DNA of 64,000 nt, taken from the NCBI GenBank assembly GCA_048939995.1, contig JBHLOY010000002.1, forward strand, positions 1 to 64,000. The letters are read 5' to 3'. Below the pieces are notes generated by a model. The model was not told the DNA's origin, did not search any database, and saw nothing but the letters and a program-made list of their open reading frames with translations. Every line of letters begins with the position of its first letter. Positions within the stretch are counted from its first letter, which is position 1. This document shows positions 6,860 through 25,716 of this stretch, one piece after another. The stretch comes from Promethearchaeota archaeon. Lineage in GTDB: Archaea; Asgardarchaeota; Lokiarchaeia; Sigyniarchaeales; SOKP01. The position numbers and the translations under genes are program-made.

Positions 6860-9220
6860 TTAAAAAGTCATATGTTCTGTTCTTTTTATGATTTCATCTT
6901 GTAAATCTTTCCCCAAATTAATATAGTAATCGCTATATCCAGCAACCCGAACAATTAAATCTTTATACTGTTCGGGATTATTTTGAGCGGCTTTTAACAT
7001 TTCAGCTGTGACAACATTGAATTGGATATGGTGTCCGTTCATGTTAAAATATGCTCTAATTAAATGAGCAACTTTTTCTATTCCAGAATCGTTTGAAAGT
7101 AATTGGGGTGTAAATTTTTGATTTAGTAGAGTTCCTCCAGTTTTAAACTGATCAATTTTTGCAGCAGATTTAAGTACTGCAGTGGGACCATTAATGTCTG
7201 CTCCCTGCACAGGAGAAATGCCCTCTGATAAGGGCATATAGGCTTTTCTTCCATCAGGAGTGGCTCCAGTTACTTTTCCAAAATAGATATGAACTGTAGT
7301 GGGGAGTAAATTAATGTGATGTAGTCCAGCCCTAGTATTCGGTCGATTATTAATAACATTATAGACAATATTAAATACTTGCTGTGTTATAGAGTCAGCA
7401 TAATCATTATCATTTCCATATTTTGGAGTTTTATACAAAATTTTCTGTCGTATTTCTTCATAACCTTCAAAATTTCTTTTTAATGCGTTCATCATATCTT
7501 TCATTGAAAATATTTTTTTATCAAATATGTTATACTTCAATGAGGTTAAGCAATCAGTTATACTTCCTATCCCTACAATTTGTATATATGATGTATTATA
7601 TTTTGCACCCCCCTCATGATAATCTAATCCTTTTTTAATGCAATCTTCTATAATTATCGATAGAAATACTGCTGGAAGCTGATGCCACAACTTTTCTATA
7701 ATCAGATTAGCTTTAATTTTAATATCTGCAAAATATTTGATTTGTCTATTATACGCATCTAAAAATTCATTAAATGACTTGAAACTAGTCGGATCTCCAG
7801 TTCTTAATCCAATTTGACTACTTGTTAATGGATCCAACCCATTATTTAGTGTAATCTCAAGTATTTTAACGAGGTTGAAGTATCCCGTGAGAATGTATGC
7901 CTCTTTTCCAAATGCACCTGATTCAATACATCCACTCGCCCCACCATTTCGAGCATCTATCAAAGTTTTACCCTGCCTAGTTAACTCTTGAATTATTGCA
8001 TCTGTATTAAATATTGAGGGTTGACCAAATCCAGTTTTAATAATGTTTAAAGCTCGTTTTAAGAACCCGTCTGGTGTTTTTTTGCTAATCTGGACATTAC
8101 TACTTGGTTGTACAATTCTCATTTCCTCAATTACATCCAATAAGAGATAGGATAGTTCATTAACACCATCTGAACCATCTTCTTTTAGACCACCAATATT
8201 AATATTACAAAAATCTGTATAAGTGCTACTCTCTTCAGCAGTTACACCAACTTTTGGAGGAGCAGGTTGATTATTAAACTTAATCCAAAATGCTTGAAGT
8301 AATTCAATTGCTTCTTCCTTAGATAATATTCCTTCAGCAATATCATTTTTATAGAAAGGATAGAGGTGCTGATCTAATCGTCCTGGATTAAAAGAATCCC
8401 ATGTATTAAATTCAATAATAACTCCTAAATGAATGAACCAGTAGTGTTGAAGGGCTTCCCAGAAAGTTCTTGGTGCGTGTGCGGGGACGCGAGAACAAAT
8501 TTCACAGATTTTTTCTAATTCTTTTTTTCTTGCTATATTAGATTCTTTTTCAGCTAATTGTTTTGCAAGTTCAGAATGTCGTTTTGCATAAGAGATTATT
8601 GCATCTGCGGCAATATTCATAGCTCTAAGTTGTTCTCTTTTGTTAAAAGCGATGGGATCATTAAAGAAATCCAGATCTTCAATACTTTTTTTTATTTCAT
8701 TTTTAAAATCCAAAAATCCTTTTTTCCAAATATTTTTTCCTGCTACAGTGTGACCAGGAGCTCTTTGTTCCATAAATTCTGTAAAAACGCCTGCTTTATA
8801 GGCATTAATCCATTCTTGGTCCATCTGCGCAAAAATTTTCTTTCTTATTGATTTCTCTTTCCAAAAAGGAATGATTTGTTCTTCTGATTGGTTTTTTACT
8901 TCTTCTGATACTTTAAATGAAATTTTTTTCCTTGTATTTAATACCTCTAAATCTTCAATACTATGGCAGCATACTTCAGGATAAGTTGGTGTTGCTTTGG
9001 GTTCTGGTCCACGTTCCCCAACTATTAATTCCCCTTCATTAATGCATATCTTTTTACGGTCTAATAAATATTTAAATAATTTAGCTCTAGCTACAGGAGC
9101 AGAATACTTCTGACACGTTCCCTTTTGATAAAATTCAGTGATAATTGAAGCCCGTTCTAAAGAAAGATAAGGAATTGCCTCTCGACTTTGGCTTCTTAAT
9201 CTTTCAATCCTCTGATTCAT
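6860..9220 (-). CDS. hypD: Glycyl radical enzyme, trans-4-hydroxy-L-proline dehydratase-like
   Basis: SGCIE Cys loop, RVAGY Gly loop; PTYPEVCCH and TEFMEQRAPGHT segments characteristic of HypD. Confidence 0.8.
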   Translation of the reverse strand: MNQRIERLRSQSREAIPYLSLERASIITEFYQKGTCQKYSAPVARAKLFKYLLDRKKICINEGELIVGERGPEPKATPTYPEVCCHSIEDLEVLNTRKKISFKVSEEVKNQSEEQIIPFWKEKSIRKKIFAQMDQEWINAYKAGVFTEFMEQRAPGHTVAGKNIWKKGFLDFKNEIKKSIEDLDFFNDPIAFNKREQLRAMNIAADAIISYAKRHSELAKQLAEKESNIARKKELEKICEICSRVPAHAPRTFWEALQHYWFIHLGVIIEFNTWDSFNPGRLDQHLYPFYKNDIAEGILSKEEAIELLQAFWIKFNNQPAPPKVGVTAEESSTYTDFCNINIGGLKEDGSDGVNELSYLLLDVIEEMRIVQPSSNVQISKKTPDGFLKRALNIIKTGFGQPSIFNTDAIIQELTRQGKTLIDARNGGASGCIESGAFGKEAYILTGYFNLVKILEITLNNGLDPLTSSQIGLRTGDPTSFKSFNEFLDAYNRQIKYFADIKIKANLIIEKLWHQLPAVFLSIIIEDCIKKGLDYHEGGAKYNTSYIQIVGIGSITDCLTSLKYNIFDKKIFSMKDMMNALKRNFEGYEEIRQKILYKTPKYGNDNDYADSITQQVFNIVYNVINNRPNTRAGLHHINLLPTTVHIYFGKVTGATPDGRKAYMPLSEGISPVQGADINGPTAVLKSAAKIDQFKTGGTLLNQKFTPQLLSNDSGIEKVAHLIRAYFNMNGHHIQFNVVTAEMLKAAQNNPEQYKDLIVRVAGYSDYYINLGKDLQDEIIKRTEHMTF

Positions 9221-22657: not shown

Positions 22658-23962
22658 TTGAGTAAAATGAAAATGCAAGAGAAAATTATTGATGATAAAA
22701 TTCATGAAAAAATGACATTGGAAAATGTATTTAAAATTTTTAATGATAATGTCTTTCCGATGTTGAATGATGAGGAAAAGGAGTACTGTAAAGAACTTCA
22801 GAATTTTTGTTTGGAGCTCCATCCAAAAATAGATAAATCTAAAGATGTGTATGAATTATTTCCAGAATTAGGAAAACATGGTTATTTACAACGAATAAAT
22901 GAGTGGAGAGATTTTACTCCATATGGAATGAAAAAAGAAATTTTATTGGGAACCCATCTCTCCTTATTAGACCCCCAACTTGAACTGGCAAGATTAGCAA
23001 GTGGAATATTGGCAGGAAACCCCACATTTCATTACTATACCCATGGTGGCACTGGAGATACTATACAAAAAGTTCAGGATGAGCTTATGTCTGGTCGAAA
23101 GATTGGGTGCATTGGAATAACGGAACCTGCAAGAGGTTCTGATGCAGTCAACATGACTACTATTTGTACAAAAACCGATGATGGAGTCATTTACAATGGT
23201 GAGAAAGTATATACCACTAATGGTCCTAAAGCAGATTATTTTTGTTGCTATGGAGTTTACGACGAAGCTCAGCCAAGAGACACAATGGTGCAAGCTATGA
23301 TAAAACGTGAATTTGGAGTTCGAACAGAGCGTCTAAAAATTAATTCAGTTCCTCGTGTGCATATTGCTCATACCATTTTAAACAATGTAAAAGTCCCAAA
23401 AGATTATGTTTTAGCTGATGATGGATTAGGATATGTAAGATTATTTGAAGGATTAGTTCCTGAACGATTAGGTATAGTGAATTAAGCAATTTCTGCTTTC
23501 ACGCTTAAAATGGGTTCAGGAATAGGTATTTGTTGGGCAGGATTAATATATGGGATTATCTATACTAACCTAAGGCAACAATTTGGAAAACCAGTTATCA
23601 GATATCAAGGTGTAGGCTATGGATTAGCAGATTTGCTTACAAAATCAACTGCCGCAACAAGTTTAGCACTTCAGGCAGCAACTATCTATGATGAAAAAAT
23701 CCTTTTTGCTGATAAACCTTCAAAAGATGCAGAGAAATGGTGCGCTGCAATTTCTTCGCAGGGAAAGTATTATACAGCAAAGCTTACACACGATATTTGT
23801 TATGAAGTACAACAGCATATGGGGGGAGTTTCTGTAACAGATAATACCCCTGTGGATGAGTTAACGGATGTAAGCAAAATTGAAGAAGTCATTGGTGGGG
23901 CAAGAAATATACAACTACTCTTAATTCAATCCCAGATTCAAAGATTTCTAAGATTAATATAA
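22658..23962 (+). CDS. Acyl-CoA dehydrogenase interrupted by a 33-nt BHB intron (join 22658..23475, 23509..23962; about 423 aa)
   Basis: ORFs 22658-23485 and 23510-23962 are in the same frame and are the N- and C-terminal halves of one ACAD (ITEPARGSD, GEKVYTTNG, ERL, RQQFGKP, QHMGG); removing the intron gives ERLGIMGSGIG. Confidence 0.88.
23476..23508 (+). other. Putative BHB-type mRNA intron (33 nt)
   Basis: Central helix AGGU(23470-73)/GCUU(23503-06); bulges AUA(23474-76) and AAA(23507-09); intron stem GUGA/UCAC plus AAGCA/UGCUU; exon stem UUCCUGAAC(23457-65)/GUUCAGGAA(23514-22); contains in-frame UAA. Confidence 0.8.
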
Positions 23963-23985: not shown

Positions 23986-25716
23986 TTAATAGTTTTTCCA
24001 CCAAGAAATATCTAATTCATAATTTTCTTGAGAAATTGGATAAATCGCAGCTAATTTTTCGAGTTCTATCCTTGCTTCTTTTGCTATCTTTTCTAATTTG
24101 ATTAAAAAGAAGTCATCTGAAAACGCTTCTTTCATAGTTCCAATGGCATCATAAAAGTTTTCTAAATAATTTCCGTAATATTTCATGTATCTACAAAATT
24201 TTTTAGCATTCATAATTTTTACATTCTTTTTATATGGAATCACGTTCTTTTTTAGAATTGCCTCTGATTCATCAATATTTAAAGCTACAATAATTAACTG
24301 TCTATTTAATGATTGATAACCTTTTTTACATTTATGATAAAACACTCTTTTTTTAGTAGAGATAGTATAGTCAATATTTATAATATCAAATGATGATTTA
24401 ATAATTACATTATCCACAGAAGTCAAACTACCATTAAATCGATTTGGCATTACCTCAAAATATCCTTTTATATCATGATTTAATGTATAATCAATAAAGA
24501 TGTATTCTAAAATCCAGTGTATATATTTTCCTATGAGATAATGTCTTTCTGAATTATCATTGTAAAATTTTATAACCCAAGATTTGAATTTCCAACCTTT
24601 TTCTTGAAACAAAGATTTCATTCTATTTTTTATAGTTGTTGGATCTGGACCTTCTCCAAAATTTTCCTCTAAATAATCACTTACAGCTGTAAAATTACCT
24701 AATTCTTCATACAGGGATTTCCATTCTTTTACTTCTTCATTACTATATAGTCCAACCTTTTTATTATCTTCAACCCACATATCAAAGTCCAATCCTCTAA
24801 ATTGGAATTCTTCTTTTAATCTCCTTTTAATATTTTTAGAATCAGGAGATTGACCTGTATTTCGATTTAAGAAATTGCTGATTGCTAAGAAACTCCCGAA
24901 TTCTTCGAATAGTTTAATCCATAATTCTAAATCACTCTTATCGTACTTAAAGCGTCCTTTAGAATACTTCTCTTCCCATTCGTCGAAATCCCACCCCTCC
25001 TTATTAGCTAGCTGAAAAATATGATTTTTTAGAACATGATGATCTATACTAATAACATTTTCTACAGCACGATAAGAACCCCATTGTTCATATAATTTCT
25101 TCCATTCTTTGGCATCAGAAAAATTATAATTTGGTAAAAAATAATTTGGGTTAACTCTTTTAAAATAAGCTTTCCAAGAACCGAAATCTCTACCTTCACT
25201 TACTAATTTTTCTTTAATCCTAATTGCTATTGTCTTATAATCAGGACTCTTTTTATTGTTATTAGCTAATATTCGAGAAATTTCTAAGAAACTCCCTACT
25301 TTTTCGTACATACTTATCCATACATTGACTTCTGAATCTTTATAATGAAATCCTCTCTGATATTTTTTGTATTTGTTAAACCATTTATTAAAATCTCTCC
25401 CTTCTTGTTGAAACTTATTCTCTAAATTTCTTTTTAATTTTCTTCGCTCAATGTGATAACCATCATTTTCCAGTTTTCTACATACTGCTCTAATACTTCC
25501 TTGATCCTCATACAAAGATTCAGAATGTTTTAAAAAATCAAGATTATATTCATTATCATAAAATGATCGCATTAAATTAGAACCGCATTTATAACAAAAA
25601 TAGTTACCATCATTTTCCCCATAAATTTCTTTAATTTTAGAGGAGAAGATATTCCAACCACATTTTTTGCAGTGGAAGATTGGTGGTTTATCAGTATATT
25701 CTTTATACATAGTCAA
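23986..25716 (-). CDS. Zn-ribbon + five approximately 60-aa helical repeats + putative PD-(D/E)xK-like C-terminal domain
   Basis: CKKC...CYKC; repeated W-x-x-[LM]-[YF]E-x-x-G[SN][FY] ... G-x-[DK]F-x-x-W units; C-terminal VDNVII...NIDYT. Confidence 0.65.
   Translation of the reverse strand: MTMYKEYTDKPPIFHCKKCGWNIFSSKIKEIYGENDGNYFCYKCGSNLMRSFYDNEYNLDFLKHSESLYEDQGSIRAVCRKLENDGYHIERRKLKRNLENKFQQEGRDFNKWFNKYKKYQRGFHYKDSEVNVWISMYEKVGSFLEISRILANNNKKSPDYKTIAIRIKEKLVSEGRDFGSWKAYFKRVNPNYFLPNYNFSDAKEWKKLYEQWGSYRAVENVISIDHHVLKNHIFQLANKEGWDFDEWEEKYSKGRFKYDKSDLELWIKLFEEFGSFLAISNFLNRNTGQSPDSKNIKRRLKEEFQFRGLDFDMWVEDNKKVGLYSNEEVKEWKSLYEELGNFTAVSDYLEENFGEGPDPTTIKNRMKSLFQEKGWKFKSWVIKFYNDNSERHYLIGKYIHWILEYIFIDYTLNHDIKGYFEVMPNRFNGSLTSVDNVIIKSSFDIINIDYTISTKKRVFYHKCKKGYQSLNRQLIIVALNIDESEAILKKNVIPYKKNVKIMNAKKFCRYMKYYGNYLENFYDAIGTMKEAFSDDFFLIKLEKIAKEARIELEKLAAIYPISQENYELDISWWKNY

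What the first reader, a model, noticed from the sequence alone, without database searches (positions are those of the whole stretch)
23457..23522. 33-nt BHB intron in an acyl-CoA dehydrogenase, four codons after the likely catalytic Glu
The insertion AGTGAATTAAGCAATTTCTGCTTTCACGCTTAA (23476-23508) splits an Ile codon (AT|A). Pairings: A70-U06, G71-U05, G72-C04, U73-G03 form the central helix; AUA and AAA are the bulges; GUGA/UCAC then AAGCA/UGCUU form the intron hairpin; a perfect 9-bp exon-exon stem UUCCUGAAC/GUUCAGGAA lies in register beyond one U-A pair and a 3x3 internal loop. The spliced protein reads LVPERLGIMGSGIG. The C-terminal motif is VIGGA, lacking the MCAD-type Glu, so by analogy with LCAD/IVD the Glu of PERL is probably the catalytic base (inference). 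Stop readthrough would add 11 residues to this helix, so splicing is the simpler explanation.
Basis: partly seen in the sequence, partly recalled or inferred. Interest (0 to 1): 0.9.

Follow-up and report, generated by a model that had tools for sequence, protein, structure and literature searches.

The report
Mobile mini-intron in Asgard enzyme gene
A fatty-acid enzyme gene of an Asgard archaeon is broken by a 33-base intron of the kind normally cut out of tRNAs; near-identical copies turn up in unrelated lineages, often next to a probable DNA-cutting gene, so these tiny protein-gene introns (published for only one archaeal coding region) appear to be both spliced and mobile.

Summary
Confirmed. 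The 33-nt insert (23476-23508, in-frame TAA) splits an acyl-CoA dehydrogenase gene of a Promethearchaeota (Lokiarchaeia) genome inside the helix carrying the IVD-type catalytic Glu. 27 orthologs are contiguous there. Ten distinct alleles carry 31-44-nt inserts at the same junction, some frameshifting. All fold as bulge-helix-bulge (BHB), with compensatory changes. Both exons stay under purifying selection. The genome encodes two-subunit EndA and RtcB. A motif-free comparison with a relative found six frame-breaking inserts, all 30-34-nt BHB (control 2/115), including single-copy EF-1alpha, metG and dnaG, so splicing is almost certainly real; no RNA was tested.

New here: carriers are polyphyletic (AU p 5e-6). 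They share 31-33/33 intron bases and about 17+15 nt of flank although their synonymous sites are saturated, so the intron moves horizontally. The convergent 576-aa ORF has a PD-(D/E)XK fold; its orthologs flank this gene in three lineages, all intron-bearing, and in 0/26 intronless ones. That suggests collaborative homing (inferred). The scan has reported similar introns and nuclease pairings on other Asgard DNA; I found none in print beyond cbf5.

The parts
22667..23475 (+). acyl-CoA dehydrogenase exon 1 (start ATG 22667 or 22673; TTG 22658 is the longest ORF start)
   Evidence: PF02770; 83-95% identical to contiguous 418-420-aa orthologs
23462..23464 (+). Glu codon of PERL, IVD/LCAD-type catalytic base position
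   Evidence: maps to IVD residue 254; invariant in 35 homologs; function inferred
23476..23508 (+). 33-nt BHB intron, splits an Ile codon AT|A, in-frame TAA at 23483-85
23470..23509 (+). BHB motif: central helix 23470-73/23503-06, bulges 23474-76 and 23507-09, intron stem 23477-81/23498-502, hairpin 23485-88/23494-97
   Evidence: covariation
23457..23522 (+). exon-exon stem (23457-65 with 23514-22); also the limits of the flank shared by all intron carriers (about -17 to +15 nt)
   Evidence: 3' flank ATGGGTTCAGGA in all carriers, in 0 of 26 intronless alleles
23509..23962 (+). acyl-CoA dehydrogenase exon 2
   Evidence: PF00441; dN/dS 0.044 against intronless sister
23986..25716 (-). 576-aa convergent ORF: Zn-ribbon, four ~65-aa repeats, C-terminal nuclease-fold domain; candidate free-standing homing endonuclease
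   Evidence: orthologs tail-to-tail with the intron-bearing gene in L183 and L194; repeats; activity untested
23989..24540 (-). PD-(D/E)XK-like domain of the convergent ORF (conserved E, D, D)
   Evidence: alignment A2; model pLDDT 94; best structural matches mostly PD-(D/E)XK nucleases, Z up to 7.5, Foldseek E 0.005 or weaker

Best explanation
The insert is a real tRNA-type intron in an mRNA. The pre-mRNA folds into a bulge-helix-bulge; the host (alpha-beta)2 splicing endonuclease EndA cuts after the second base of each bulge, RtcB joins the exons, and a 418-420-aa acyl-CoA dehydrogenase is made. Shown: insert, structure, covariation, intact selected exons, enzyme genes. Inferred: cleavage and ligation. 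The intron has entered this gene several times by horizontal DNA transfer with about 17+15 nt of flanking exon, which brings the pairing partners needed for splicing. Shown: polyphyly and shared flanks. Inferred: direction and route. The likeliest driver is the convergent PD-(D/E)XK-fold gene acting as a free-standing homing endonuclease that cuts intronless alleles near the insertion site, while the intron protects its own allele (about 55-60% for this last step).
For: 27 contiguous orthologs; only 3 of 107 family genomes show the stop-containing insert. Ten carrier alleles with 31, 33, 43 and 44-nt inserts at one junction keep the BHB: 94% of cells paired, 5 pairs changed on both sides, slid controls 26-48%. 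dN/dS 0.02-0.07 in both exons of carriers, as in intronless pairs; the window's own branch has 24:7 and 11:3 synonymous:non-synonymous changes. EndA alpha (Tyr/His/Lys motifs) and beta paralogs and RtcB are present. Motif-free census: 6 of 6 frame-breaking inserts are BHB against 2 of 115 in-frame indels; they include the only EF-1alpha, metG, dnaG and purA found. About 12 of 124 family genomes have an interrupted EF-1alpha; coordinates give 30-33 nt in nine of them. Intron state needs 8 changes on the gene tree, all forced by strong branches; monophyly of the near-identical type is rejected, p-AU 5e-6. dS between carriers is often above 2 while introns are 31-33/33 identical. Nuclease downstream in 3 of 7 carrier lineages, 0 of 26 intronless, Fisher p 0.006; L194 was found through the nuclease and proved to carry an intron. 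A sister subfamily sits tail-to-tail with CTP synthase, which is split in L196 and G077.
Against: No transcript, cDNA or peptide across the junction was available. The window's central helix has two G-U pairs and the open BHB is not the energy minimum. The gene has several paralogs, so it need not be essential. Four carrier lineages with visible downstream DNA lack the nuclease; G106 has a family member beside an intact CTP synthase; the 52% homolog in G087 has no acyl-CoA dehydrogenase C-domain on its contig. Exon 2, which lies between intron and nuclease, groups with the host's intronless sister, so it was not replaced from a distant donor. The five G000 introns confirmed by homology, and the two candidates, show no copy of this nuclease nearby. 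Structural scores for the nuclease fold are modest. Carriers were collected by targeted searches and kin are not independent, so p values are optimistic.
Confidence: 0.9

Rival explanations
1. Spliced BHB intron, but it spreads without the neighbouring nuclease: by ordinary short-tract recombination or transformation, or by RNA-level transposition as proposed for archaeal tRNA introns. The nuclease gene is an independent intronless-homing element that targets the same conserved gene. (This competes only with the mobility step.)
For: Short shared flank that ends where the exon stem ends; 4 of 7 carrier lineages lack the nuclease; exon 2 follows the host tree; nuclease beside intact CTP synthase in G106; other recombination is visible in this gene (exon-specific dS).
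Against: All three orthologs seen beside this gene accompany an intron, none of 26 intronless alleles has one; no reverse transcriptase found in the genome; a preprint on Asgard tRNA introns found no general copying or RT route (10.64898/2026.10.13.758758).
Confidence: 0.35
2. Ancestral intron kept almost unchanged by selection and lost precisely many times; the shared flanks reflect selection on the stem, not transfer.
For: Most shared flank positions are paired; the intronless L025 clade has the same 5' flank; deeper carriers have diverged introns.
Against: Loop and bulge bases are also identical between lineages with saturated synonymous sites; intronless sisters lack the flank although they match their carrier sister on both sides of it (L022 against L024); it needs many losses.
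Confidence: 0.07
3. No splicing: the gene is translated as two polypeptides (275 aa and 150 aa) by re-initiation at the Met right after the insert.
For: Exon 2 starts one base before an ATG and is annotated as a separate ORF; in L194 the two called ORFs overlap at a stop-start.
Against: The break falls in the middle of helix 263-294, four residues after the catalytic Glu; insert lengths vary while RNA geometry is kept; the same architecture cuts P-loop codons of EF-1alpha and PurA after about 20 residues.
Confidence: 0.05
4. Dead gene (insertion pseudogene), assembly artefact, or stop readthrough.
For: Paralogous acyl-CoA dehydrogenases exist; 33 nt keeps the frame.
Against: The insert recurs in many independent assemblies; no relaxation of selection or second lesion; frameshifting lengths at the same site; TAA ends ordinary genes here.
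Confidence: 0.04

Closest known systems
cbf5 pre-mRNA BHB intron of Crenarchaeota (Watanabe 2002; Yokobori 2009, PMC2738675)
   Same: Short ORF-less intron in a coding region with a BHB junction, removed by EndA in the cbf5 case; hosts here have the two-subunit enzyme genes.
   Different: Different phylum (Asgard) and gene; at least six such genes in one genome instead of one; patchy, polyphyletic, near-identical copies, whereas the cbf5 study treats gain and loss along the species tree. PMC7714728 (2020) lists cbf5 as the only earlier mRNA case and adds one 5'-UTR case in Haloferax.
Archaeal tRNA and rRNA BHB introns, including the repeatedly gained Asgard tRNA introns (bioRxiv 10.64898/2026.10.13.758758)
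   Same: Size, motif, enzyme, repeated independent gains.
   Different: Host is an mRNA; no similar sequence elsewhere in the genome (best other match 9 mismatches); no intron-encoded endonuclease.
Collaborative homing of cyanophage S-PM2: free-standing F-CphI beside the intron-bearing psbA (Zeng 2009; PMC6083498)
   Same: A free-standing nuclease gene adjacent to a conserved gene whose intron interrupts the presumed target.
   Different: Cellular archaeon rather than phage; protein-spliced 33-nt intron rather than group I ribozyme; PD-(D/E)XK-like fold with no Pfam match rather than Endo VII motif; cutting not shown.
IVD/LCAD-type acyl-CoA dehydrogenases (PMC11153573)
   Same: Glu on helix G, none in the J/K loop.
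   Different: Only a distant homolog; substrate unknown.

Membership tests
Archaeal BHB (EndA-spliced) intron | Intervening sequence absent from orthologs; removal restores the product | tested here: met
Archaeal BHB (EndA-spliced) intron | 4-bp central helix with two 3-nt bulges, junctions after the second bulge base, flanking helices | tested here: met
   L187 has 3 of 4 central pairs
Archaeal BHB (EndA-spliced) intron | Structure kept through sequence change | tested here: met
   (5 pairs with changes on both sides)
Archaeal BHB (EndA-spliced) intron | EndA and RNA ligase encoded by the host | tested here: met
Archaeal BHB (EndA-spliced) intron | Excision from RNA by EndA | not testable with these tools
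   needs RT-PCR, reads or in vitro cleavage
Group I / group II or HEG-containing intron | Ribozyme core or internal ORF | tested here: not met
   33 nt; no Rfam match near threshold
Free-standing homing endonuclease, collaborative homing | Nuclease domain with catalytic residues | tested here: inconclusive
   PD-(D/E)XK-like fold, conserved E/D/D, Z 7.5 at best, no Pfam hit
Free-standing homing endonuclease, collaborative homing | Optional gene adjacent to a conserved target gene that carries an intron | tested here: met
   exceptions noted
Free-standing homing endonuclease, collaborative homing | Co-conversion running from the cut site to the nuclease gene | tested here: inconclusive
   short shared flank at the intron, but exon 2 follows the host tree
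Free-standing homing endonuclease, collaborative homing | Cuts the intronless allele, not the intron-bearing one | not testable with these tools
   needs an assay
IVD/LCAD-type acyl-CoA dehydrogenase | Catalytic Glu on helix G, absent from J/K loop | tested here: met
   by alignment only

The most novel reading that the evidence does not exclude
Lokiarchaeia carry a population of 30-45-nt, ORF-less mRNA introns, spliced by the tRNA endonuclease, that invade active-site codons of conserved genes and spread between species by collaborative homing with an undescribed family of gene-specific PD-(D/E)XK nucleases with swappable repeat DNA-binding regions; this locus is a complete intron-plus-nuclease pair.
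Probability: 0.5. Interest if true: 0.92.

Novelty: new variant of a known kind. Interest (0 to 1): 0.82.

Why it matters
In the papers I could search, endonuclease-spliced introns inside archaeal coding regions are known only for cbf5. Routine mRNA splicing of essential genes in the archaea closest to eukaryotes would show that protein-spliced mRNA introns are common there, and it bears on the ancestry of spliceosome-independent splicing (HAC1/XBP1 uses an endonuclease plus ligase; own knowledge). How ORF-less BHB introns are gained is an open question: a 2026 preprint on Asgard tRNA introns found no general route. This locus offers a testable DNA-level route with a defined substrate and candidate enzyme. 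Practically, such genes are annotated as split or pseudogenes in Asgard genomes.

Tried and rejected
A structure-only genome scan for BHB plus ORF joining had too much background: real and mirror-geometry counts were similar; only its most stable hits were used as leads. blastn gap detection missed most introns; one script timed out. No second copy of the insert in the genome or among its called tRNAs, none in viral contigs. No LAGLIDADG (PF14528, PF00961) or reverse transcriptase (PF00078) found in the genome (98% complete). Pfam and the Atlas feature search did not name the nuclease; Atlas hits were below 0.9. Promoter and terminator scan uninformative. Literature searches found no report of coding-region BHB introns in Asgard; subscription journals are largely outside that library.

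Full report
Observation. The window holds two same-frame ORFs, 22658-23485 and 23510-23962, matching the middle and C-terminal acyl-CoA dehydrogenase domains. Removing 23476-23508 gives one 418-aa frame. The region folds at -24.2 kcal/mol, z -4.1; the open BHB form is -21.5. Of 30 best orthologs, 27 are contiguous across the junction and three (G000, G004, G006) carry the insert. Record titles of two carriers read Promethearchaeota. In the family, 3 of 107 genomes with a full match show the stop-containing insert; frameshifting inserts could drop out of that count.

More alleles. Pattern and protein searches added carriers from metagenomes. The near-identical type is 31-33/33 alike. L186 is a 33-nt variant, L187 31 nt, L183 43 nt, L194 44 nt. 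All sit at the same Ile codon, contain a stop or shift the frame, and keep the BHB. Examples: U-G becomes C-G and U-A becomes C-G in L186; G-U becomes G-C in L183; an exon change G to A turns G-U into A-U in G004 and L194. Counted on eight alleles, 94% of cells pair and five pairs change on both sides, against 26-48% for slid structures (the structure was derived from the window, so this is partly favourable by construction). Frameshifting lengths rule out readthrough.

The gene is alive. Both exons show dN/dS 0.02-0.07 between carriers and their intronless sisters, the same as intronless pairs, and there is no second lesion. The junction lies within helix 263-294 of a modelled 95%-identical homolog, four residues after the Glu that maps to catalytic Glu254 of isovaleryl-CoA dehydrogenase; the MCAD-type Glu is replaced by Gly.

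Splicing machinery and other introns. The genome encodes two EndA paralogs, one with Tyr, His and Lys motifs and one without the His, and RtcB. To test earlier AI notes about other introns in this genome, I aligned it to 2.6 Mb of a same-genus genome without using the motif. Six insertions break a frame with strong alignment on both sides: dnaG (34 nt), EF-1alpha (33), this gene (33), fwdA (30), metG (32), purA (30). All six have a 4/4 central helix and an intron stem; 2 of 115 in-frame indels do. EF-1alpha, metG, dnaG and purA have no second ortholog in the assembly. An organism cannot live without EF-1alpha or MetRS (established knowledge), so these mRNAs must be repaired, and the BHB says how (inference). 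About 12 of 124 family genomes, in four genera, have an interrupted EF-1alpha start; coordinates give 30-33 nt in nine.

Mobility. On the gene tree, with the junction region masked, intron state needs 8 changes, all forced by strong branches. Holding the near-identical type together is rejected (p-AU 5e-6). Several carrier pairs are saturated at synonymous sites, yet share the intron and about 17 nt upstream and 15 nt downstream; in that stretch each carrier resembles other carriers more than its own intronless sister, the reverse of the rest of the gene. The 3' flank ATGGGTTCAGGA is in every carrier and in none of 26 intronless alleles. Horizontal entry with short co-conversion fits best. Selection on the stem explains part of the pattern but not identical loops.

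Candidate driver. The convergent ORF 23986-25716 has a Zn-ribbon, four repeats and a C-terminal domain shared by a patchy family (35 of 135 family genomes; 86 clusters at 50% identity) with variable N-termini. The domain folds confidently, and its structural neighbours are mostly PD-(D/E)XK nucleases, with modest scores. Its 48% ortholog is tail-to-tail with the intron-bearing gene in L183. Its 55% ortholog, found independently, is tail-to-tail with the same gene carrying the 44-nt intron. These three host alleles are not a clade. None of 26 intronless alleles has it downstream (p 0.006). A related subfamily abuts CTP synthase in four loci; that gene is split in two, intact in one and cut off in one. 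This is the arrangement of collaborative homing described for phage S-PM2 (PMC6083498). Against it: four carrier lineages lack the nuclease, exon 2 follows the host tree, and no cutting was tested. Loss of the nuclease after homing, or action in trans, would explain the first point but is not shown.

Comparison and verdict. It works like, and meets every testable criterion of, an archaeal BHB intron. Published coding-region examples that I found are limited to cbf5. The scan has noted similar Asgard introns and nuclease pairings on other DNA; those are leads, not evidence. Splicing about 0.9; horizontal spread about 0.85; collaborative homing by this nuclease about 0.55-0.6. New variant of a known kind, interest 0.82.

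Noticed in passing
G000 C11:167313-167345 (-), C11:487217-487250 (-), C6:82172-82203 (+), C7:109897-109926 (-), C17:377423-377452 (-): BHB introns of 30-34 nt in EF-1alpha, dnaG, metG, purA and fwdA, each at a highly conserved motif; confirmed by alignment to an intronless relative.
   Followed up: yes
G000 C23 about 175420-175450 (-) and C38:64707-64737 (+): Two more candidates: a very stable 30-nt BHB (-27.4 kcal/mol) joining a 165+303-aa pair of unknown family, and a 31-nt one in a CoA-transferase; close orthologs were not in the part of the relative I held.
   Followed up: partly
L196 about 6940-6975 (-); G077 C17:44574-46794; L195; G106 C152:7688-9890: Homologs of the convergent nuclease sit tail-to-tail with CTP synthase; L196 has a 31-nt relaxed BHB insert, G077 is split at a similar place, G106 is intact.
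   Followed up: partly
L179 near 8583 (G008 C3): A 30-nt hairpin insertion in G008, absent from G000, in what looks like 23S rRNA; probably an rRNA BHB intron.
   Followed up: no
L018 and L022: Both carrier contigs end 71 and 137 nt after the gene's stop, so their downstream neighbour is unknown.
   Followed up: no
L025, L028, L029: An intronless clade whose 20-nt upstream flank equals that of the carriers; it is sister to the two most diverged carriers and may be near the source of the flank.
   Followed up: partly
L188 against L020; L022 against L024: Very different synonymous distances in exon 1 and exon 2 (0.36 and 1.2; 0.48 and 0.08), suggesting recombination with a break near the intron.
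   Followed up: no
L115-L116 (G008 C24 about 318.8-320.4 kb): A 520-aa member of the nuclease family in an unrelated context, with no split neighbour seen.
   Followed up: partly
G106 C38, G110 C8, G137 C120: Tandem duplicates of this acyl-CoA dehydrogenase, both copies intronless.
   Followed up: no
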